From Candidatus Bathyarchaeota archaeon (GTDB lineage: Archaea > Thermoproteota > Bathyarchaeia > 40CM-2-53-6), in contig CAVSBL010000002.1 in the NCBI GenBank assembly GCA_963726255.1, positions 128,001 through 192,000 of the forward strand: a stretch of 64,000 bases of DNA, read 5' to 3'. Of the stretch, positions 1-7,573 are shown piece by piece. The notes below the pieces were generated by a model. The model searched no databases, was not told where the DNA came from, and saw only the letters and a program-made list of their open reading frames with translations. Both the position numbers and the translations under genes were made by a program. The first letter of the stretch is position 1, and every line of letters starts with the position of its first letter.

Positions 1-307
1 GTATAGGCGAGGTGTTTTCAATCGCAAAGCGCAAAAATTCCACCCACCAGTAGGCTCACCCACGCTCGTCGCCGCAACGCAGGTTTGCAGCACGTGTGGG
101 AATCTTGTGCCGAAAGGCGCATTTTGTGAAAAGTGCGGCGCGCCGTTGGAAATGCCCGCGGCTTCATCAGACGAAAAAGTATTCGATTACATCGTGAAAC
201 ATGAAGGTGTCATATCATTAAGCAAGGCTTCATCCGATCTCGGAATTCCTGTGGGCGAACTCAAGGAAATAACGGAGCGGCTGAAGAGTCAGGGGCGCCT
301 GACCTAA
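1..307 (+). CDS. 3' end of a protein with a C-terminal zinc ribbon and winged-helix-like domain (5' part outside window)
   Basis: Frame is open from the window edge; CSTC...CEKC zinc ribbon followed by DEKVFDYIVKHEGVISLSKASSDLGI...LKSQGRL helix-turn-helix pattern; TAA at 305-307. Confidence 0.7.
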   Translation, partial: YRRGVFNRKAQKFHPPVGSPTLVAATQVCSTCGNLVPKGAFCEKCGAPLEMPAASSDEKVFDYIVKHEGVISLSKASSDLGIPVGELKEITERLKSQGRLT

Positions 308-705
308 AAGAGCGAGAAGGGGGAACGGGCCTGCTGCTCACTCGCAACCGCGTATTGTCCGAGTGGAGCGCCTAGTTTGGGAGCTAATCCCCAGTAACAT
401 TCTGTGCAGAGGCTTAGAGCCCCGTATTGCCTGTTACAGGCTGCGCAAATCGACCTGCCGCATCTTGAACATATGAACGATGATGGGAGCTCAGAGTGAT
501 AGTAGCAGCTTCCCTGTCTTTGGCCCTGTCTTGAAACGTACGTGGACGGAGCGATTGGAGCGACCGGAGTTGGTTTCATGGAGGGAGTTAAGGGCGATCG
601 CACTTCAACCTTCACAGGTGGTCCACGGGAAACCATCGCACCGCATTTGAAACAGTACTTTGCATCCCCAGAGTTGGGTGAGCCGCAAGCCGGACACATC
701 GACAT
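304..705 (-). CDS. Soluble zinc-ribbon + B-box-like zinc finger protein
   Basis: CPAC...CFKC ribbon, Pro-rich linker, CYYH-x8-CSRC-x4-CAAC-x9-CTEC; likely start ATG 705 rather than 738. Confidence 0.75.
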   Translation of the reverse strand: MSMCPACGSPNSGDAKYCFKCGAMVSRGPPVKVEVRSPLTPSMKPTPVAPIAPSTYVSRQGQRQGSCYYHSELPSSFICSRCGRSICAACNRQYGALSLCTECYWGLAPKLGAPLGQYAVASEQQARSPFSLF

Positions 706-861
706 GCTGAAATCCCAACATCCATTGGCATCAAGCATTTCTTAACGGTTGCTTAGGGCGGAAAGGGTTCGTCCATCCCAATTCGGCGTGAAATGTGGCA
801 ATCCATGGGAGTTGGAATGACCCGCGTGCAAAAGTGTGACACGGTTATTACAAAATTCACA

Positions 862-2103
862 CTATGTAAGCCTTAGAATTGATTCGTGAAACTCTCCGTT
901 CTTGTCTTCGCCGAGAACTCTGAGATAGTCCCCCCGGGCGATACCCTTTCCTAGCCTTGAATGCCCGTCAAGTAGTCTTGAACCCTCTGAAGTTTCCGCT
1001 AGGACGTTCAATGTTCCGGCTTTGATTTTGGTGTGATGGCGGATAGTTCCTTCCAAACTCTCCTTCGAACTATGGGCAACCTCGAACGGCAAATCAGCCC
1101 GTTGGGCAGGTTCTCTAGTCGTCCCTTCCTTTCCGCACACGAAGCATTTCTCACCACGTTTCAAGTCAATCGGGGTGTACCGATTATTCTTCAAATCCAT
1201 GAACAAGACAGATCTGAGGGGTTGACCGCTGGTTCCAGGCCATTTTGCGTTCGCCCGGTATTCCTTCATCCCTAGGATCAGCTTGATTGTTTCCTGGGCA
1301 AGTATTGATGAGACCAGTGAAATCGTCGTTGCAAAGGATGGAACGGCCTCCTGCTCCAACGGTGCATCACATGGGTTTCGTAAGCCAACGATCTTAGAGT
1401 ACTGGTTGGGCGGAAACATGCATACAGGGCACGCATCGTCGGGCGGTAGATAGACATGTACTCTACCGTTCAGCCCGGTGATTCCCCCGTCAACTAATGG
1501 GATGGAGTATTTTCTGCAAATCTGAGTTAGGAAAATTCGCGAGACGACATTGTCGAGCCCGCAAACAACTACGTCCGAATCCAAATAGAACTTCAGAGGC
1601 ATCTTCTCGAGGTCGCCCCTGAAGGCAATCGTCTGAACGAAAGGGTATTTTCTGTGGAGGTTTCCTGCCAGAACCTCGGCCTTATTCCGTCCTAGGTCGT
1701 TTTGTTGAAAGAGCACCATGCGGCTAACGTTAGACATTTCGACAATATCCCGGTCTACAATGAAGACTCTGCCGACTCCTAACATGGCTAGGTTCTTGGC
1801 CACCTCGTTCCCGATGGCGCCGGCCCCAGCGAGTAGCACCGATGAATCCCTTATTCTCCGCTGGCCTTCTGGCCCCCAAACGAGCAAGTGTCGCGCCCAA
1901 AGGTAGTCAACGGTCACTTTGCCCTTGATTTTCGACAGTCGGCTTTGTTCCGGGAGGAGTTTGCCGCCTGCCAGCAGATTGGTGAGATCTGGTTCAATGC
2001 CTAGTTTCTTGCAAATTATTTCCTTGACGTCCTTCACCGTCTTGTTTGGGTTCAGCTCCACTTCGAGCTCTTTGTAGGAAGGGAGCGAGGCTCTTATGCG
2101 CAT
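862..2103 (-). CDS. E1-like ubiquitin-activating enzyme (ThiF/UBA) with N-terminal ubiquitin-like domain
   Basis: GAGAIG nucleotide-binding motif, DRDIVEMSNVSR, GLDN, CPVC and CFVC zinc pairs, candidate catalytic Cys in RNPCD; N-terminal TVKDVKEII...LLAGGKLL pattern; ATGA overlap with E2. Confidence 0.92.
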   Translation of the reverse strand: MRIRASLPSYKELEVELNPNKTVKDVKEIICKKLGIEPDLTNLLAGGKLLPEQSRLSKIKGKVTVDYLWARHLLVWGPEGQRRIRDSSVLLAGAGAIGNEVAKNLAMLGVGRVFIVDRDIVEMSNVSRMVLFQQNDLGRNKAEVLAGNLHRKYPFVQTIAFRGDLEKMPLKFYLDSDVVVCGLDNVVSRIFLTQICRKYSIPLVDGGITGLNGRVHVYLPPDDACPVCMFPPNQYSKIVGLRNPCDAPLEQEAVPSFATTISLVSSILAQETIKLILGMKEYRANAKWPGTSGQPLRSVLFMDLKNNRYTPIDLKRGEKCFVCGKEGTTREPAQRADLPFEVAHSSKESLEGTIRHHTKIKAGTLNVLAETSEGSRLLDGHSRLGKGIARGDYLRVLGEDKNGEFHESILRLT

Positions 2104-2696
2104 CAAGAAGACGCTCGTCGTGCCCGTCCAGGGATATCGAACCTAACTATGTCATCTGCGCCTAAAGATTTGGCCAATTCGGGGACAGGGACTACGTTGA
2201 AGCGGACAATATCGTTGGCTTCCTTATTCGTCGGCCTAGCTTTCGTCATCTTGGGAAATCCGTAGGAGCGACAAACGCCTGCTGCTTTGAGCGCCCGGGG
2301 GTTATCAAAAACACTCTGAGGGTTTGGATCCGTCAGAAGGTAATGTAACGCGTTGACGACAGATACGAGTTTCAGCCTGGGGTCCCATTTTTCTCCGAGT
2401 ATTGAAACGCATACGGCATTCGGTATTTTCGGGACTATGTTTGGATGGGCGATTTCCGTAAGCCAGGTAGCCACGGGTGGCTTCAACGGGTATTCTGGGG
2501 GAATATCAAGTCTGAAGCGGTGCCAATTCGTGTAATCCGTGAAGGGCCAGACTCCCTTCTCGGACAGCTTCATGACTTCCCCTTTCTCGCAGCGAATGAG
2601 CCCTTCGAATTGAGTAGGTGGGTCGTCGATGGCAGTGATTGTAGGGAACTGATGGTTGAGCAGGCTCTTTTCCTTCAGCAGCAACGAGACATCCAA
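2103..2696 (-). CDS. E2 ubiquitin-conjugating enzyme (UBC fold)
   Basis: IPPEYPLKPP, HPNI, catalytic Cys in AVCVSIL, W-x-P, LLTDPNP: the canonical UBC signature set. Confidence 0.93.
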   Translation of the reverse strand: MDVSLLLKEKSLLNHQFPTITAIDDPPTQFEGLIRCEKGEVMKLSEKGVWPFTDYTNWHRFRLDIPPEYPLKPPVATWLTEIAHPNIVPKIPNAVCVSILGEKWDPRLKLVSVVNALHYLLTDPNPQSVFDNPRALKAAGVCRSYGFPKMTKARPTNKEANDIVRFNVVPVPELAKSLGADDIVRFDIPGRARRASS

Positions 2697-2707
2697 ATCT
2701 AGCCAGC

Positions 2708-2950
2708 CTACCCGCCGATGATGTTGTATGGCATGAGTGCAAGCTGAGCATTTTCAGGAATGCCTAATCTTGCAACGGTGGTACTCTCGTCTAGTATCGC
2801 GCCTCCATACATGAGAGCCACGGTGCTCGGGTCAACGTTGAACGATTGGCAGACCTGTTGCTTTATTTCCGCAACTGTATGGTCTGGGATTACATCGATC
2901 TCCGCTAGGCCAGTCTGGGGGCCGATGGGCGCTTGGACGAACAGTTTCAT
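2708..2950 (-). CDS. Ubiquitin-like modifier with exposed C-terminal diglycine
   Basis: MKLFV...TVAEIKQQV...LMYGGAILDESTTV...IIGG-stop aligns by eye with ubiquitin; GGAGGTGA 10 nt upstream of ATG 2950. Confidence 0.92.
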   Translation of the reverse strand: MKLFVQAPIGPQTGLAEIDVIPDHTVAEIKQQVCQSFNVDPSTVALMYGGAILDESTTVARLGIPENAQLALMPYNIIGG

Positions 2951-3160
2951 TTGTCGTGTTTCACCTCCACTCATGCTGGGCCTTCATTTTCGCAGATGAG
3001 CTTAAACTGTCTTGCTATGAATCGGTTGGTGCGTGAAGGTAAGGTCCTCGGCCCGGGCGGCTCTTGCTGGGTACATGGGGTGTATTGTGAGGCTGGGAGG
3101 CCGATTTGGTCACCTTCCGTTCCGGAGTCTTCGTGTAGCGTCGTGGTCTTCATATTCATT

Positions 3161-4315
3161 TTATTCAGCCAGCTGCGGTGCGGAACCCTTTGAACCGCGA
3201 ATGATGAGTCCGATTGAAGCGACCTCAATCCACAACAGTATTGATCCGATGGACAGTCTATCAGCAAGACCTGCGTACGGGGCGGAAATCGAGACGAGGC
3301 CGAGGACACCCAGGGTAAGCGCGATTGGTAGCATTACGATACTGAAACGGTCGTAGCCTTTCCAACGTGGGTCGAGACGGAATTGTAGCCAAAAGAGAGC
3401 AATCGCTGCAAGCGAGAAGAATGCAATAATTCCTGTGATGACTAAGTGCAGCATGCCCAATACAGCGAACGGAGGACTGGCGGTATAATCTTGCGGGAAA
3501 AGAAAGAGAACCAGGCCCCCAGCGCCTGCGGCGACTAGGAACGCCGAACCCCAAATGTGTCTGGCTTCTTTCTGGATTCCATAGTATAGACCAACCGCCA
3601 GAAGGATCAAGCAAACATCGTAGAAGGCGAAAAGAGGCACCATTATGACTTGGTTAGGAGCACGTGAAGAGAGAAGAGTACTCACCGTCTCGCTATAGTG
3701 TGAGTACCCAGGCCACAAGAAACCGCCAATCAAGACGGCGGCGATATAGACAATAGGACCAACGGCTCCGAAGATTCCAAGTACGCGTATCCCGGAATTA
3801 GACTGCTTCACTTCGACTGTTGGTATCGCAGCAGGAGGCGCCGCTCTTGCCTCGGGCCGAACCGCCGCCGACCGCACGGTGTAGACTGTAATTCTTTCAC
3901 CAGGTATACGGACGGCTTGCCCACTCGAAGGCTCTACGCGAAAGAAGCCTACATCGCCGGTCGAGGCGTCTACGACCATTCCAGAAATGAGGGTTGAAAA
4001 CTGTTGGAGTACTGATTGCGTGGCGATGTCTGTTTGCGAGAAGAAGAGCCCACCATGGGTGTGTGAGTGGTACCAGCCGACAATATTGCCCTTTATCCGG
4101 CCGGTCACAATTCCGTCCGCAATTTCGGCCAACGCTTTCGATGAGAGGATTGCCCGGTGCGGCTCGGTGGCGGATTCACCAGTGACTGAGTCTTCGATTA
4201 TTATGGTATTGTCTTGAAACCGCCCTATCAGTACGCCGATTATTTCATTCTTAGTCGTGCGCGCAGCCCGGACTATTTTATCGTTAACGGGCTTCGCTAT
4301 GCTCACGTAGGACAA
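3161..4315 (-). CDS. JAMM/MPN+ (Rpn11-like) isopeptidase fused to a DUF998-like multi-pass membrane domain
   Basis: EIIGVLIG and GWYHSHTHGGLFFSQTD (E...HxH-x7-S-x2-D); C-terminal half has about six hydrophobic segments and PGYSHYSETVSTL. Confidence 0.88.
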   Translation of the reverse strand: MSYVSIAKPVNDKIVRAARTTKNEIIGVLIGRFQDNTIIIEDSVTGESATEPHRAILSSKALAEIADGIVTGRIKGNIVGWYHSHTHGGLFFSQTDIATQSVLQQFSTLISGMVVDASTGDVGFFRVEPSSGQAVRIPGERITVYTVRSAAVRPEARAAPPAAIPTVEVKQSNSGIRVLGIFGAVGPIVYIAAVLIGGFLWPGYSHYSETVSTLLSSRAPNQVIMVPLFAFYDVCLILLAVGLYYGIQKEARHIWGSAFLVAAGAGGLVLFLFPQDYTASPPFAVLGMLHLVITGIIAFFSLAAIALFWLQFRLDPRWKGYDRFSIVMLPIALTLGVLGLVSISAPYAGLADRLSIGSILLWIEVASIGLIIRGSKGSAPQLAE

Positions 4316-4370: not shown

Positions 4371-5144
4371 CTAGCGTCCTAGCATGCCGAGTATTCCACC
4401 CAGCACGCCCAGAACGAATCCGGCCACGAAGCCACCGCCGATCAACAGGCTCAAGACCGCAAGTGGAAAGACGACTATGCTGCCTATGGTTCCGTATCCT
4501 AGTAGCATCAGTATTGACCCGATTACCAGTATGAGCCCGATTATCGCTCCTATAGCGAACGTCAAACTCGCCGGGCCAACAGCTGGCAACCAGAAGAAGA
4601 CGCCTGTCCATAGAGTGTAGAAGCTCGGTGAAAGCAAAGCTGCTGCGTTAAGTATCACAAGTATACCTGCGATCATTGCTAGTATGAAGCCCCAGAGCGC
4701 TCTCGGGGGAGCAGGTTGGTAAAGCGGGGGCAATGGTCCCATGAAGGGAGCCGGCGCTGCCATTGGGGGTGGACCGTAGGCGGGTTGCATAGGTGGCATT
4801 TGCATCGATGGCATTTGCTGTTGTGGAGCTGCTACCATCGGTACTACGCCTTGGTAACATTGCGGACAGAGTACAAGGTCCATGTAGGCCTTCGAGTCGT
4901 CGCGGCAGATTGCTCTTCCACAACGGTTGCAAACATAGACGGCGGGTAGGTTAGGGTGATAGTAACATTGGCCAGGTGCTGGAACCCTGATCGGGCTGCC
5001 AGGGCTGACAGGTGTTACAACGCGGACTGAAGGGACTGGTTTGAGCATGGGTCCTGCTGCGCCTGCGAGCGATGAGCCACAGCTTGAGCAGAATGCTGCG
5101 TCGTCGCGGTTGTTGTAGCCGCATGCTGGGCATTTTCTGACCAT
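4371..5144 (-). CDS. Zinc-ribbon + B-box-like finger + Pro-rich linker + C-terminal membrane domain protein
   Basis: CPAC...CSSC, CYYH-x8-CNRC-x4-CRDD-x9-CPQC, PPM/PAP-rich linker, 3-4 hydrophobic Gly-rich helices; AGGAGG upstream. Confidence 0.8.
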   Translation of the reverse strand: MVRKCPACGYNNRDDAAFCSSCGSSLAGAAGPMLKPVPSVRVVTPVSPGSPIRVPAPGQCYYHPNLPAVYVCNRCGRAICRDDSKAYMDLVLCPQCYQGVVPMVAAPQQQMPSMQMPPMQPAYGPPPMAAPAPFMGPLPPLYQPAPPRALWGFILAMIAGILVILNAAALLSPSFYTLWTGVFFWLPAVGPASLTFAIGAIIGLILVIGSILMLLGYGTIGSIVVFPLAVLSLLIGGGFVAGFVLGVLGGILGMLGR

Positions 5145-5560
5145 TTTCCTAATTAGCCTCCTTTAGTTAATTTAACTCGGAAATACGCTGCCGTCGTCAA
5201 CGCACTTAAGCGTTTGCTTAACTATTGGCAAATTGGTGAATGATAAAAGCGCAATAATACCATTTTTTAACGCAAAACGTTGTCACTGGGTCTAGAGACC
5301 CCGTTCTCTTGTTACTGGTATACCTGTAATAGGGGTTTTTCACTAATGACACCATGTAGTTCCGTTTAGAACGCTTGTCACTCAGAAGAATGTCCGATCG
5401 CCTAGTCGCCCAGCGAGTTATCCTTCGGAGACAAAGTTCTCAAGAACTGAGTAAGGTTCTATCAACCTTGTCGTTATTCTACACGACTTCTCTTCAGAAA
5501 TGCCGGGTGTCTTCTCAGCACATATTTAGCGAAGTTGTGTATAGGGCAGCCCGCTCGAAG

Positions 5561-5669
5561 GCCCCGGTGGCTCAGCCTGGTAGAAACAAGACAACGCCAA
5601 AAGCGCCGCCTTGGTAACGAACAGACAAAGAGGCGAAGGTCGTGGGTTCAAATCCCGCCCGGGGCTCCA
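5561..5669 (+). tRNA. tRNA-Thr(GGT) with two introns (22/23 at 5584-5601; 37/38 at 5617-5630)
   Basis: Acceptor GCCCCGG/CCGGGGC, T discriminator + CCA, T-arm GTGGG-TTCAAAT-CCCGC, anticodon loop TT-GGT-A|A; BHB helix TGGT/GCCA restores D-stem GAGC; one C27-A43 mismatch. Confidence 0.85.
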
Positions 5670-6583
5670 ACTTCTGTCAGACCGTCAATGGGCCGGATTC
5701 TGACCCATCTGCGACCTTGTTTTTCATAGAGGCGTCTCCATTCGATAGCGGCTCGTCGTGCGTCATATGACTCTAGTAGGCGGAGGGCGACGGACATCTT
5801 CTCGTGCTTTCTTTCCAGTCCGAACCCGATGACTTCACAAAATCGCTTTTGATCCAGCCGGCTCGAAATGGTGAGATGATAACATCGACGTTTGCTCCAC
5901 ATTGGCTTTCGCTTTCTCTCTTGGAAGATTCTTGAACGTATGCCGAACCGCGTTTCTAACAATCCTTGGATGTACACCAAAAGCCAATGCTTAGTGTTGA
6001 CCAGGACGACATAGAGGGCGAGATTACGAACAATCTCAGAGGTGCTAGATGATCTTGTGTAGACTGAAACTACTGGCGAGCCTTCGGCGTCCGCAAATCC
6101 CCTTATGAACTCGGAGGGATAGACACCTGTAGTTTCCCGAATTCTTTGCCAATCTGAGAGGAATTCAAAAAGCAATCTGCTCCAGAATCTAACTACAAAG
6201 AATCCTTTCTTATCGAAGAAGGGCAGCTTCTTTTTTCCCAAGACAACGCTCGCGCAAGTTGCTACAGTTTCGGCGAATTGCCGATCTCTCACCCTCAATC
6301 GCAATTCATAGTGGAATGCACTGCTTTTGATAAGGGCACCATCGCCGAGAAAGGCGCCCGCAACATAGCTCAATGAAGTAGAAGGACGAAGGTCTGGATT
6401 CGTGCAGCTACCAAAAGGGGAGTTTATTCCACGTAACCAATTGTACACAGTGGGACATGGAAGTCCCAGCAGCTTGGCAATCCGAGTGTGATCCATGCCT
6501 CGCTCTCTGTTTAGTTCTAGCACAACCGGGTATGCAGCCACCCTCTCAGCCAGCGAAATCCGCCTGGACGTTTTGACTGGCAT
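5648..6583 (-). CDS. Free-standing double-motif LAGLIDADG endonuclease with N-terminal HTH
   Basis: Motifs YVAGAFLGDG and FIRGFADAEG; HTH pattern HTRIAKLLGLPCPTVYNWL; late TISS...FCEVIGF block typical of DOD endonucleases. Confidence 0.9.
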   Translation of the reverse strand: MPVKTSRRISLAERVAAYPVVLELNRERGMDHTRIAKLLGLPCPTVYNWLRGINSPFGSCTNPDLRPSTSLSYVAGAFLGDGALIKSSAFHYELRLRVRDRQFAETVATCASVVLGKKKLPFFDKKGFFVVRFWSRLLFEFLSDWQRIRETTGVYPSEFIRGFADAEGSPVVSVYTRSSSTSEIVRNLALYVVLVNTKHWLLVYIQGLLETRFGIRSRIFQERKRKPMWSKRRCYHLTISSRLDQKRFCEVIGFGLERKHEKMSVALRLLESYDARRAAIEWRRLYEKQGRRWVRIRPIDGLTEVGAPGGI

Positions 6584-6669
6584 GGATAAATGTCCAGTAG
6601 CTTTGACAGATGTTGCCGGTCATTAGTATGAGAGCTTAGTGAAAGTGTTCTGAGATAATCGCCTGACTT

Positions 6670-6697
6670 GTGGGTTCAATTCCCGCCCGGGGCTCCA
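6670..6697 (+). repeat. Duplicated 3' end of tRNA-Thr(GGT) (att-like site)
   Basis: 28-bp copy of 5642-5669 with one mismatch in the T-loop. Confidence 0.92.
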
Positions 6698-6967
6698 GCT
6701 AAACTCAAACTCAGCGTGTCCAATTACTCGTCGGTAATGTGCGGGGTTTTCGGTTTTTCTTGTGTTCGCGCGGGCTTATGTCATTCGACACCTAACGACA
6801 TGTACCTTGTCTGAACGGTCGGCTGACCTGCTAGGCGCTAACTGCGCGGGCTCGATGGTATCGGAGTCGTTCCACGCTATCGTAGCAGGATGAGAAGAAT
6901 GAGTGGTTATTTGTGATACGAACTCAAAGAAAAGAGTTCGCGAAGACTTGAAGGCTTTCGTCTGTGC

Positions 6968-7057
6968 TTAGTGCGCTGACTTTGCGTGTGCTTCAAGTTC
7001 TTCCCTTGTTTTGAAGAACATTTTGCAAGCAGGGCAAACATATGTTCCTAGAGACAA
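6968..7057 (-). CDS. 29-aa stand-alone C2H2 zinc finger microprotein (below ORF-track cutoff)
   Basis: MSLGTYVCPACKMFFKTREELEAHAKSAH; GGTGAG before TTG; TTTAATATAT TATA-like box at about 7091-7100. Confidence 0.75.
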   Translation of the reverse strand: MSLGTYVCPACKMFFKTREELEAHAKSAH

Positions 7058-7165
7058 TCAACTCACCAGTTGAGAATTACAGGCGCTTGGATATATTAAA
7101 TGGCTTGAATGCTTCAACCCAAGAAAAGGTAGATCAATGGACCGTGCTAGGCCTAACTTGATTTG

Positions 7166-7573
7166 CTAACGAGGCTTCTTTCGCTTGTCGGTGCCGAAGA
7201 GCTCAATCCAGATTCCGTCCGGGTCCTTTACGTAGGCTAATCTCTCGCGGCCATTAGAGAAGGGTGCAACTGCTCTCTTAGCCCCCTTTGCGATGAGCAT
7301 GGCATAAGTTCGGTCAACATCATCGGCCCAGAACCCAATATGGTCCATCTCCGTTCCTGGCCGGTACCGTTCGTAAAACTTGTTCCGGGACGGATAGTAG
7401 TTGAGTTCCAACCTCTGCGCCGATCCGGGCTTCTTGAGGTGGACGAAGACTCCTCCGTGGTGCATAGTTCCCCTGTGAATTACCTTCATGCCCAAGACTT
7501 TCGTGTAGAACCGAAGCGACCGGTTCAGGTTGCTTACTCGAATGCCAAAGTAAACGAAGCGCATAGGTACCAA
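7166..7573 (-). CDS. VOC/glyoxalase family protein
   Basis: GIRVSNLNRSLRFYTKVLGM, LELNYY, DHIGF, DPDGIWIEL. Confidence 0.9.
   Translation of the reverse strand: MVPMRFVYFGIRVSNLNRSLRFYTKVLGMKVIHRGTMHHGGVFVHLKKPGSAQRLELNYYPSRNKFYERYRPGTEMDHIGFWADDVDRTYAMLIAKGAKRAVAPFSNGRERLAYVKDPDGIWIELFGTDKRKKPR

What the first reader, a model, noticed from the sequence alone, without database searches (positions are those of the whole stretch)
3161..4315. Rpn11-like JAMM protease fused to a DUF998-like membrane domain
Seen: an intact JAMM motif in a eukaryote-like GWYHSH context, an Ala/Pro linker, then about six TM helices in one uninterrupted frame. Established: characterised JAMM enzymes (Rpn11, CSN5, AMSH, archaeal JAMM1) are soluble; DUF998 has no assigned function that I know of. 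Inference: an integral-membrane deubiquitinase, which would also give DUF998 a functional context.
Basis: partly seen in the sequence, partly recalled or inferred. Interest (0 to 1): 0.72.

Follow-up and report, generated by a model that had tools for sequence, protein, structure and literature searches.

The report
Membrane-anchored Rpn11-like deubiquitinase in archaeal ubiquitin operon
A sediment archaeon's ubiquitin-like gene cluster encodes a ubiquitin-removing protease built into the cell membrane, which hints that this archaeal ubiquitin system works at the membrane.

Summary
Window 3161-4315 (minus strand) is one 384-aa frame: Pfam JAB (E 3e-11), a ~25-residue Ala/Pro linker, then DUF998 (E 7e-21) with six predicted TM helices. 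The catalytic set E24, H83, H85, S93, D96 is intact.

It is not an assembly artefact. The same fusion occurs in 5 of 23 genomes of the genus. Contigs from two other studies span it without indels, and both domains are under purifying selection.

The gene sits in a conserved eukaryote-like operon: Zn-ribbon/B-box-like membrane protein, JAMM, Ubl ending in GG, E2, E1, Zn-ribbon/B-box-like protein.

The orthologues are not soluble. All 124 clade members examined carry a TM segment after the JAMM domain. Most (97) have one TM helix plus three extracellular Ig-like domains. The DUF998 forms are a single nested clade.

So membrane tethering is ancestral here, and DUF998 is a swapped-in anchor.

Most likely function: a membrane-tethered isopeptidase that removes the operon's Ubl from conjugates at the cytoplasmic face of the membrane. 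The Ubl needs no processing in this genome.

This is a new variant of a known kind. I found no description of it in eight literature searches.

The parts
3161..4315 (-). Whole gene: JAMM-linker-DUF998 protein, 384 aa (TTG start at 4315, stop 3161-3163)
   Evidence: ORF. Pfam JAB + DUF998. 100% match to a stored protein cluster on a 2.36-Mb contig (P0001).
3872..4315 (-). Cytoplasmic JAMM/MPN+ catalytic domain, residues 1-148
   Evidence: Pfam JAB 4-106. Best PDB sequence hit is CsRpn11 6fjv, E 1.1e-11. Foldseek top hit 6fju_A, E 6.5e-09. VIA Z 18.5 to yeast Rpn11 4o8x_B and 17.5 to CsRpn11 6fju_B. dN/dS 0.08-0.13.
4028..4069 (-). Zinc-site motif H83-S-H85-x7-S93-x2-D96; the catalytic Glu E24 is at 4244-4246
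   Evidence: Read from the sequence. HxHx7SxxD is present in 124 of 124 clade members. Glu is present in all DUF998-fused rows.
3800..3871 (-). Flexible Ala/Pro-rich linker, residues about 149-172, ending in the conserved TVEV(K/R) motif just before TM1
   Evidence: pLDDT below 50 for 150-172. Linker length 28-33 aa in 23 DUF998 forms and 16-47 aa in 97 TM+ectodomain forms, with a shared TVEV motif. dN/dS 0.2-0.55.
3191..3799 (-). DUF998 (Frag1-like clan) six-helix integral membrane domain, residues 173-375
   Evidence: Pfam DUF998 75.2 bits. Six TM helices with positive-inside loops. Six helices at pLDDT of about 90. Residues G183, Y204, S212, L214, P220, A240, G242, H290, W318, G349, W362, L370 are invariant across 7 divergent fused and stand-alone DUF998 rows. 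dN/dS 0.15-0.23.
4371..5144 (-). Upstream operon gene: 257-aa Zn-ribbon + B-box-like Cys/His domain + Pro/Met-rich spacer + Gly-rich multi-TM region. Candidate membrane E3 or adaptor (unproven).
   Evidence: Pfam Zn_Ribbon_1 and DZR above cut-off. zf-B_box E 0.0056 and Prok-RING_1 E 0.011 are both below cut-off. TM segments. Found upstream of the JAMM gene in 23 of 27 related loci. Alignment A2 has 65% mean column identity.
2708..2974 (-). Ubiquitin-like protein ending ...IIGG-stop. The real start is probably M9 (nt 2950), giving 80 aa.
   Evidence: Pfam ubiquitin E 1.8e-10. Ends in GG followed by a stop in all five DUF998-fusion loci. 79-100% identical across 26 related loci. Stop codons upstream of M9 in several relatives.
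2103..2696 (-). E2-like ubiquitin-conjugating enzyme (HPN 84-86, Cys96)
   Evidence: Pfam UQ_con E 6.4e-17. Motif. It is the only UQ_con match in the genome.
862..2106 (-). E1-like activating enzyme with an N-terminal ubiquitin-like domain
   Evidence: Pfam ThiF E 4.9e-51 and ubiquitin E 1.8e-06 on residues 11-60. GAGAIG at 94, CPVC at 226, CFVC at 321.
304..738 (-). Last operon gene: soluble 144-aa Zn-ribbon + eight-ligand B-box-like protein, a paralogue of the N-terminal part of the 4371-5144 protein
   Evidence: Pfam Zn_Ribbon_1 E 7.4e-06. zf-B_box E 0.0018, below cut-off. 36% identical to the ZnTM protein. Cys/His pattern at 78-114.

Best explanation
The gene encodes an integral-membrane, Rpn11-like zinc isopeptidase that is the deconjugating arm of a eukaryote-like ubiquitylation operon in a Bathyarchaeia archaeon.

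The six-helix DUF998 domain embeds the protein in the cytoplasmic membrane. The JAMM domain hangs in the cytoplasm on a flexible linker of roughly 25-30 residues. From there it cleaves the operon's Ubl off lysine conjugates made by the neighbouring E1 and E2, probably helped by the two Zn-ribbon/B-box-like proteins, one of which is itself membrane-embedded.

The Ubl is translated with a free GG end in this genome, so the enzyme's job here is deconjugation rather than precursor maturation.

The DUF998 module replaced an ancestral 'one TM helix + three Ig-like ectodomains' module at the same linker position. The conserved requirement is therefore to hold the DUB at the membrane. DUF998 may additionally couple its activity or location to membrane lipid state.

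Shown: domain composition, intact catalytic residues, predicted topology, operon conservation, a single anchor swap, purifying selection.

Inferred: catalytic activity, membrane-proximal substrates, any regulatory role of DUF998.
For: Domains and motif.

Closest sequence and structure relatives are CsRpn11, Rpn11 and CSN5: (6fjv, E 1.1e-11), (Z 18.5 and 17.5). CsRpn11 is a biochemically shown DUB and pro-Ub peptidase (PMC6043591 and PMC5654768; I read passages).

Predicted N-in/C-in topology with six TM helices.

Operon ZnTM-JAMM-Ubl-E2-E1 across 27 related loci: Ubl in 26, E2 in 23, ZnTM in 23. Most misses are at locus ends.

Ubl ends in GG followed by a stop in all 5 fusion loci.

The fusion is present in 5 of 23 genomes of genus g1. 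15 others carry a JAMM protein of about 500-625 aa in the same slot.

All 124 clade members examined have a TM segment after the JAMM domain. In the unrestricted representative library, 40 of 52 further JAMM-bearing representatives do as well.

The 24 DUF998 forms make one clade (SH-aLRT 95) nested among TM+ectodomain forms, needing 1 change.

The linker and its TVEV motif are shared by both architectures.

The sister architecture was modelled at pLDDT 88.7: JAMM, disordered linker, one TM helix, three beta-sandwich domains. These match Ig-like domains at Z 11-13.

dN/dS is 0.08-0.13 for JAMM and 0.15-0.23 for DUF998.

Independent contigs span the gene.
Against: There is no biochemical or expression proof. 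The RNA-library contig could derive from contaminating DNA.

Topology rests on a hydropathy scan and the positive-inside rule, not on a dedicated predictor or an experiment.

The E3 role of the Zn proteins is weak. Their B-box and RING hits are below Pfam cut-offs, and the PDB profile search matched only the Zn ribbon.

Substrates are unknown.

Nine more distant orthologues (L027-L034 and P0106) carry Gln at the catalytic Glu position. Catalysis is therefore not universally conserved in the wider clade.

The ZnTM gene is not upstream in L009, L021 and L022, although those loci have room for it.

DUF998 keeps family-invariant polar residues and is selectively constrained. It may therefore do more than anchor, which this model leaves open.
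Confidence: 0.6

Rival explanations
1. Bifunctional or cis-acting model. DUF998 is the functional core, a lipid-handling or lipid-sensing membrane protein as proposed for DrmA and Frag1-like proteins. The fused JAMM domain mainly protects or regulates it, or its immediate partners, by stripping Ubl from them. On this view the fusion reports a real functional link between DUF998 and ubiquitylation.
For: DUF998 is under purifying selection (dN/dS 0.15-0.23). It retains residues invariant in stand-alone family members, including polar Y204, S212 and H290 in predicted outer loops. P0024 carries a very different DUF998 sequence on a JAMM domain 85% identical to that of L008. That could be a second DUF998 recruitment. 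The DrmA preprint links the family to lipid homeostasis (PMC13370385, passages).
Against: The same operon slot is filled by an unrelated TM+Ig-like module in 97 of 124 clade members, and DUF998 arose once. The closest stand-alone DUF998 examined (56% identical, L010) is not next to Ub genes. The genome's own stand-alone DUF998 is elsewhere. P0024 is a single sequence with no detectable relatives of its membrane domain, so chimerism or rapid divergence cannot be excluded.
Confidence: 0.17
2. Processing-only model. As shown for C. subterraneum Rpn11, the enzyme's main role is to mature a Ubl precursor by cutting after GG.
For: CsRpn11 does this (PMC5654768, PMC6043591, passages). In 8 related loci (L013, L027-L029, L031-L034) the Ubl has 1-3 residues after GG.
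Against: In this genome, in all five DUF998-fusion loci and in most of the genus, the Ubl ORF ends in GG followed directly by a stop. Nothing needs removing. Membrane anchoring is also unnecessary for processing a soluble precursor. Seven of the eight loci whose Ubl has a tail are the ones with Gln at the catalytic Glu position.
Confidence: 0.05
3. Defence-system model. The operon is an archaeal counterpart of bacterial Bil/CBASS-type Ubl conjugation systems that act against viruses, and the membrane JAMM is its regulator.
For: The gene content (Ubl, E1, E2, JAB) resembles Bil systems. The E1 hits PADLOC E1-E2 and BilD models at domain level (best 2.4e-17; BilD 1.8e-08), and the JAMM hits the JAB model weakly (8.9e-04). 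Distribution is patchy at genus level: g1 21/22 and g4 10/10, but g2 only 2/22, and the listed g2 matches cover the DUF998 part only.
Against: The Ubl, E2 and both Zn proteins hit no PADLOC model. The E2 matches the eukaryotic UQ_con family and the JAMM is closest to Rpn11 and CSN5. The operon is syntenic and stable across a genus, family and order, with the Ubl 79-100% identical. That is unlike fast-turnover defence islands. The flanking genes are housekeeping (TBP, DEAD helicase, DHDPS, Y-family polymerase).
Confidence: 0.07
4. Artefact or pseudogene: a chimeric assembly or a decaying read-through of two genes.
For: The genome bin has 9.3% estimated contamination. A few database entries hold only the DUF998 half (for example P0020, 212 aa, 96% identical).
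Against: The gene lies on a 2.36-Mb contig. There are 20 JAB+DUF998 clusters from several sources, down to 40% identity. Five genomes carry it. Contigs from two other studies span it without indels. There is strong purifying selection on both halves. The flanking operon is conserved.
Confidence: 0.02

Closest known systems
CsRpn11, the Rpn11-like JAMM of the Caldiarchaeum subterraneum ubiquitin operon (PDB 6fju/6fjv/6fnn)
   Same: It is the best sequence and structure match. It has the same catalytic motif, lacks an Ins-2 insertion, and is encoded beside a Ubl/E1/E2/Zn-finger cluster. It is a shown DUB that acts alone (PMC6043591, PMC5654768, passages).
   Different: CsRpn11 is a soluble 202-aa protein with C-terminal helices, and neither paper mentions a membrane. 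Here the C-terminal helices are replaced by a disordered linker and a six-TM DUF998 domain. The Ubl here needs no propeptide removal.
Eukaryotic Rpn11 / CSN5 / BRCC36 (MPN+ DUBs)
   Same: MPN fold with Z 16-18.5, 22-28% identity, and the GWYHSH-type active site.
   Different: The eukaryotic enzymes work only inside soluble multi-subunit complexes with an MPN- partner (statement taken from PMC6043591 passages). No such partner lies in the operon. The genome has only one other JAB gene, a 145-aa protein elsewhere.
AMSH/STAMBP and yeast Sst2 (endosome-associated JAMM DUBs)
   Same: It would work like them: a JAMM DUB acting at a membrane surface. The Sst2 catalytic domain matches at Z 15.2.
   Different: From my own recall, not from any call: AMSH is a peripheral protein recruited through ESCRT interactions, not an integral membrane protein. 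I found no ESCRT genes in the about 25 kb examined around the operon.
Stand-alone DUF998 proteins (PF06197, Frag1-like clan), e.g. DrmA of Enterococcus faecalis
   Same: Full-length Pfam match, six helices, shared invariant residues. Stand-alone relatives reach 56% identity (L010).
   Different: Stand-alone proteins of about 200-240 aa have no cytoplasmic enzyme domain. DrmA's reported role (glycolipid levels, PMC13370385 passages) has no known link to Ubl systems.
Sister architecture in the same clade: JAMM + 1 TM + three Ig-like ectodomains (e.g. P0025)
   Same: Orthologous operon slot, 60-67% identical JAMM domain, and the same linker and TVEV motif.
   Different: It is single-pass with about 300 extracellular residues (Ig-like matches at Z 11-13), where this protein has a polytopic membrane domain with almost nothing exposed outside.

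Membership tests
JAMM/MPN+ metalloprotease (Pfam JAB PF01398) | Profile match above the curated cut-off | tested here: met
   43.5 bits against a cut-off of 22.5, E 3.3e-11
JAMM/MPN+ metalloprotease (Pfam JAB PF01398) | Catalytic Glu plus HxHx7Sx2D zinc site | tested here: met
   E24, H83, H85, S93, D96. The motif is in 124 of 124 clade members.
JAMM/MPN+ metalloprotease (Pfam JAB PF01398) | MPN fold | tested here: met
   AF2 model against PDB: Z 18.5 (rmsd 2.8, 144 aligned) to Rpn11 4o8x_B; Z 17.5 (rmsd 2.6, 145 aligned) to CsRpn11 6fju_B. Foldseek E 6.5e-09.
JAMM/MPN+ metalloprotease (Pfam JAB PF01398) | Zn-dependent isopeptidase activity on Ub/Ubl conjugates | not testable with these tools
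   Needs an enzyme assay.
Proteasome-lid Rpn11 proper | C-terminal helical bundle and Ins-2 that dock it into the lid with an Rpn8-type MPN- partner | tested here: not met
   After strand 142-145 the model shows a disordered linker, then TM helices. No second MPN gene lies in the operon. The genome's only other JAB is a 145-aa ORF about 0.9 Mb away.
DUF998 (PF06197, Frag1-like clan) | Full-length profile match above the cut-off | tested here: met
   75.2 bits against a cut-off of 30; profile positions 2-181 of 184.
DUF998 (PF06197, Frag1-like clan) | Six-helix transmembrane bundle | tested here: met
   Six hydropathy peaks. Six helices between 173 and 375 at pLDDT of about 90. The six-helix description of the family comes from PMC13370385 and 10.1101/2023.03.09.531927 (passages).
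DUF998 (PF06197, Frag1-like clan) | Structural likeness to a solved Frag1-like or DUF998 structure | tested here: inconclusive
   Only generic helical-bundle matches with Z of 10 or less. The DrmA preprint states that no crystal structure of the family exists.
DUF998 (PF06197, Frag1-like clan) | Role in membrane lipid homeostasis (DrmA) | not testable with these tools
   Needs lipidomics or genetics.
Archaeal eukaryote-like ubiquitylation operon (C. subterraneum type) | Ubl with a C-terminal GG, an E1 (ThiF) and an E2 (UQ_con with HPN...Cys) encoded together with a JAMM | tested here: met
   Synteny holds in 26 (Ubl) and 23 (E2) of 27 related loci.
Archaeal eukaryote-like ubiquitylation operon (C. 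subterraneum type) | RING-type E3 (srfp) | tested here: inconclusive
   Two Zn-ribbon + B-box-like proteins. zf-B_box E 0.0018 and 0.0056 and Prok-RING_1 E 0.011 are all below cut-offs. The PDB profile search matched only the Zn ribbon.
Archaeal eukaryote-like ubiquitylation operon (C. subterraneum type) | Ubl made as a precursor that the JAMM must cleave | tested here: not met
   The Ubl ORF ends in GG followed by a stop here and in all fusion loci. Tails of 1-3 residues occur in 8 more distant loci.
Bacterial Bil / CBASS-associated Ubl defence systems | Matches of the Ubl, E2 and JAB components to the system's own models | tested here: not met
   PADLOC v2: no hit for the Ubl, the E2 or the Zn proteins. 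JAB hit only E 8.9e-04. The E1 matches generic E1-E2 and BilD models over the adenylation domain. The library dates from 2023.

The most novel reading that the evidence does not exclude
Bathyarchaeia, and the wider clade seen in metagenomes, run a membrane-centred ubiquitin signalling module. In it, receptor-like Rpn11-type DUBs use an extracytoplasmic Ig-like domain, or in this lineage an intramembrane Frag1-like DUF998 domain, to sense outside or lipid cues. That sensing gates removal of Ubl from membrane proteins tagged by a membrane-embedded B-box-like ligase.

This would be a prokaryotic antecedent of ubiquitin-dependent membrane-protein sorting and quality control (AMSH/ESCRT- or ERAD-like logic), existing outside Asgard archaea.
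Probability: 0.15. Interest if true: 0.85.

Novelty: new variant of a known kind. Interest (0 to 1): 0.62.

Why it matters
Archaeal eukaryote-like ubiquitin operons are known and one has been reconstituted. What they modify in the cell is still unknown.

In this lineage the deconjugating enzyme is always built into the membrane, through either of two unrelated anchor modules, and it sits next to a membrane-embedded Zn-finger protein. That gives a concrete, testable lead: the system acts on or at the membrane.

I am not aware of any other integral-membrane JAMM-class deubiquitinase, and eight literature searches found none described.

The protein also provides a natural soluble-domain construct (residues 1-150) and a natural anchor-swap series for experiments.

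It still shows the domain being used as a selectively maintained membrane module of a signalling enzyme.

Tried and rejected
Complex prediction. I folded the JAMM-DUF998 protein (alignment A1) with the upstream ZnTM protein (alignment A2). The result was 'no answer', ipSAE 0.00 in two runs, and the controls were not run. This is no evidence either way, and I make no binding claim.

A second origin of DUF998. A word-based search with P0024 residues 172-388 returned only P0024 itself. Whether P0024 is a second recruitment, rapid divergence or a chimera stays open.

Solved homologues of the DUF998 domain. VIA wide search gave only generic helical bundles with Z of 10 or less, which is uninformative.

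Remnant of the ectodomain gene downstream of the DUF998 forms. tblastn of ectodomain C-termini against the fusion loci gave only chance-level hits (E 0.38-5.5). The [LI][TI]VR C-terminal tail is present in 79 of 97 TM+ectodomain forms but in only 2 of 23 DUF998 forms (PIVR, LIAR). That is a hint, not a demonstration.

Link between stand-alone DUF998 and Ub genes. There is none in L010.

Defence-system models: rejected as a classification. NCBIfam gave nothing above its cut-offs.

tRNA near the LAGLIDADG ORF: none found in 5000-7300.

RNA evidence. RNA-library contigs cover parts of the ORF and the upstream gene. These contig depths cannot rank expression, and DNA carry-over is possible. The uncovered bins (for example 2700-3109 in X15 and X16) prove nothing.

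Literature. Eight answered searches found no paper describing a membrane-anchored archaeal Rpn11-like JAMM or a Bathyarchaeia Ub operon. Subscription-journal papers are not in the library.

I did not use the look-up of encoding contigs, which was declared closed. No AlphaFold-DB library was available for comparing the DUF998 model with Frag1-like models.
Full report
WHAT IS THERE

The region 3161-4315 holds a single 384-aa ORF on the minus strand. Pfam places a JAB/MPN domain on residues 4-106 (E 3.3e-11) and a full-length DUF998 domain on residues 185-366 (E 6.7e-21). Both are well above the curated cut-offs.

A hydropathy scan finds six TM helices. The K/R-rich loops (242-253, 310-324, C-tail) alternate with K/R-poor loops, which predicts N-in/C-in. 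That puts the JAMM domain in the cytoplasm.

An AlphaFold2 model built on a 28-row alignment (mean pLDDT 79.9) shows three parts: a compact MPN domain (1-145), a disordered stretch (150-172, pLDDT below 50), and six long helices (173-375, pLDDT about 90).

IS IT REAL?

Yes, on four lines of evidence.

- The word-indexed protein search returned 107 hits. Twenty of them carry JAB+DUF998 (95% down to 40% identity, from several sources; some are named Candidatus Bathyarchaeia). Another 77 carry JAB without DUF998, and 10 carry DUF998 only.
- In a sample of 401 genomes of the class, full-length matches occur in five genomes, all in the window's own genus (G000, G281, G275, G307, G260).
- Assembled contigs from two other studies cover the whole ORF without indels. 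A 588-nt contig from a metatranscriptome library bridges the domain junction. Only contigs could be laid, not raw reads.
- Pairwise dN/dS against four orthologues is 0.08-0.13 for the JAMM part, 0.15-0.23 for DUF998 and 0.2-0.55 for the linker.

THE CONTEXT

The gene is the second of six co-directional genes between 5144 and 304:

1. A 257-aa protein with an N-terminal Zn ribbon, a B-box-like Cys/His cluster, a Pro/Met-rich spacer and a Gly-rich multi-TM region.
2. The JAMM-DUF998 protein.
3. A ubiquitin-family protein ending in IIGG followed by a stop.
4. A UQ_con E2 (HPN at 84-86, Cys96).
5. A ThiF-type E1 with an N-terminal ubiquitin-like domain.
6. A soluble Zn-ribbon + eight-ligand B-box-like protein.

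This is the archaeal eukaryote-like ubiquitylation cassette known from Caldiarchaeum subterraneum, whose Rpn11-like JAMM has been shown to process pro-Ub and to deconjugate Ub (PMC5654768 and PMC6043591; I read passages only).

That enzyme is the best PDB match by sequence (6fjv, E 1.1e-11). By fold it ties with yeast Rpn11 (Z 17.5 and 18.5; Foldseek).

tblastn of the six window proteins against 27 related loci found the Ubl next to the JAMM gene in 26, the E2 in 23 and the ZnTM gene in 23. Most misses are where the fetched locus ends, but L009, L021 and L022 have room upstream and lack ZnTM. The Ubl is 79-100% identical across these loci.

The genome has a single UQ_con gene. Its only other JAB is a 145-aa ORF elsewhere, and it has one other, stand-alone DUF998.

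THE KEY COMPARATIVE RESULT

They are not, but most are not DUF998 fusions either.

Of the 23 genomes of the genus, 5 have the DUF998 fusion. Fifteen have a JAMM protein with an open frame of about 475-625 aa in the same operon slot. Two show only the short paralogue, and one shows nothing.

I collected 124 clade members: the window, 27 locus ORFs and 96 database proteins. All 124 have at least one hydrophobic segment after the JAMM domain. Of these, 97 are 'TM + long C-terminal region', 24 are DUF998 (23 similar to the window's, plus P0024), and 3 are short TM-only forms.

That set was limited to proteins of 211-672 aa. In the length-unrestricted representative library, 40 of 52 further JAMM-bearing representatives among the top 150 also have a TM segment. 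Of the 12 without one, 9 are 200 aa or shorter, so they are fragments or short forms. The same search found no JAMM+DUF998 representative other than P0009 and P0024. P0125 is a DUF998-DUF998 tandem with no JAMM.

A model of the nearest TM-type sister (P0025, pLDDT 88.7) shows JAMM, a disordered linker, one TM helix (186-206) and three beta-sandwich domains. These match Ig-like accessory domains at Z 11-13.

A maximum-likelihood tree of the JAMM domain alone puts all 24 DUF998 forms in one clade (SH-aLRT 95) nested among TM+ectodomain forms, with P0025 as nearest neighbour. One change of state suffices. This was a quick search on 149 columns, so many deeper forks are unresolved.

The linker length is about 30 residues in both architectures, and both share a TVEV(K/R) motif just before the first TM helix. 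The swap therefore replaced everything downstream of the linker.

HOW IT MOST LIKELY WORKS

Shown: a catalytically complete Rpn11-like domain, tethered by a flexible linker to an integral membrane module, encoded within a Ubl/E1/E2 operon.

Inferred: it is the operon's isopeptidase, and its tether restricts it to conjugates at the inner face of the membrane.

The Ubl ORF ends in GG followed by a stop in this genome and in all fusion loci. Eight more distant loci have 1-3 extra residues. Precursor maturation therefore cannot be the main task here.

Two further facts fit a membrane-focused system: the membrane-embedded Zn-ribbon/B-box-like neighbour, and its four paralogous matches elsewhere in the genome. 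Its E3 role is unproven, because the B-box and RING hits are below cut-off and the PDB profile matched only the Zn ribbon.

Does DUF998 do more than anchor? That stays open. The domain is constrained, and it keeps residues invariant in divergent stand-alone members, including Y204, S212 and H290 in predicted outer loops. Papers place the family in the Frag1-like clan and tie one member, DrmA, to glycolipid levels (PMC13370385 and 10.1101/2023.03.09.531927, passages). A functional metagenomic screen also recovered a DUF998 protein among ester-hydrolysing clones (PMC6302743, passages).

Against a specific DUF998-ubiquitin link, an unrelated module occupies the same position in most relatives. 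The closest stand-alone DUF998 examined is also not near Ub genes.

RIVALS

The rivals are a bifunctional/cis-acting DUF998 model, a processing-only model, a Bil-like defence system and an artefact. They are weighed in the Rival explanations section.

The defence reading is weakened in two ways. PADLOC has no match for the Ubl, the E2 or the Zn proteins. The operon is also stable and syntenic, with housekeeping genes on its flanks.

COMPARISON AND NOVELTY

By membership it is an MPN+ JAMM of the Rpn11-like archaeal clade and a DUF998 protein. It is not a proteasome-lid Rpn11: it has no C-terminal helical bundle and no MPN- partner in the operon.

By mechanism it would work like CsRpn11, but held at the membrane. 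It is functionally reminiscent of AMSH at endosomes, or of the TM-anchored USP-class DUBs of eukaryotes. That comparison is from my own recall.

Eight literature searches found no description of a membrane-anchored archaeal JAMM or of this Bathyarchaeia operon. The two CsRpn11 papers do not use the word 'transmembrane', and their only 'membrane' hits concern eukaryotic K63 trafficking and blotting membranes. Subscription journals and paper supplements could not be searched.

I rate it a new variant of a known kind. The interesting unit is the whole clade of membrane-anchored Rpn11-like DUBs. The DUF998 fusion is one lineage-specific form of it.

LIMITS

- No experiment was possible, and topology rests on hydropathy only.
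- Only contigs could be laid, not reads.
- Complex prediction gave no answer.
- The genome bin has 9.3% estimated contamination, although the operon lies on its 2.36-Mb contig.

Noticed in passing
L027-L034 (JAMM ORFs) and P0106: In these more distant orthologues the residue aligned with the catalytic Glu (three residues before the conserved Gly) is Gln (..QVVG.. / ..QIVG..), while HxHx7SxxD is kept. Seven of the eight loci among them also have extra residues after the Ubl's GG; L030 is the exception. They may be pseudo-DUBs or use a different general base.
   Followed up: partly
window 862-2106 (-): The E1 carries an N-terminal ubiquitin-family domain (Pfam ubiquitin E 1.8e-06, residues 11-60) ahead of the ThiF domain. 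From my recall, the usual position of an E1 ubiquitin-fold domain is C-terminal.
   Followed up: no
window 4371-5144 (-) and G000:C2 at 897090, 741662, 866587: The Zn-ribbon/B-box-like membrane protein has paralogous matches elsewhere in the genome: a 236-aa ORF (49% identity), a 797-aa ORF sharing the Gly-rich TM region (52%), a 143-aa ORF (32%), and the operon's own soluble copy (45%). This looks like a small family of possible adaptors or ligases served by a single E2.
   Followed up: partly
C-termini of clade members (e.g. P0025, P0016, P0075): A C-terminal [LI][TI]VR tail ends 79 of 97 TM+ectodomain forms. It also ends two DUF998 forms that have C-terminal extensions (P0016 PIVR, P0017 LIAR) and two short TM-only forms. 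It could be a sorting signal, or a DNA-level constraint just upstream of the Ubl gene.
   Followed up: partly
P0024: This single metagenomic protein has a JAMM domain 85% identical to that of L008. Its DUF998 domain is not recognisably similar by BLASTP to the window's, and a word-based search found no relatives of it.
   Followed up: partly
P0020 (212 aa) and G224:C2:492957-493717: P0020 is a DUF998-only gene call, 96% identical to the window's domain, that starts inside the linker on a 78-kb contig. In G224 the JAMM gene is split into 68-aa and 475-aa frames. These are either frameshifts in the assemblies or real splits.
   Followed up: no
window 5648-6583 (-): A 311-aa LAGLIDADG_3 + HTH ORF lies just upstream of the operon. 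No tRNA gene was found in 5000-7300, and GC dips to 0.46 at 5001-5500. It is possibly a free-standing or intein/intron-derived homing endonuclease.
   Followed up: partly
P0125: A 434-aa metagenomic protein is a tandem DUF998-DUF998 duplication with twelve predicted helices.
   Followed up: no
L035:10631-12307 (+), running into window 2-307: A 558-aa protein converges on the operon's end. It has an InlB B-repeat-like domain (Flg_new_2, E 1.4e-10) and a C-terminal CxxC...CxxC Zn ribbon, read from the translation.
   Followed up: no
P0212, P0214, P0126, P0148: More distant JAMM proteins (about 40% identity) also have one TM helix followed by unrelated C-terminal regions: Ser/Thr/Gln-rich, coiled-coil, or up to 761 aa long. 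Membrane-anchored Rpn11-like JAMMs with varied outer domains therefore appear widespread in metagenomes.
   Followed up: partly
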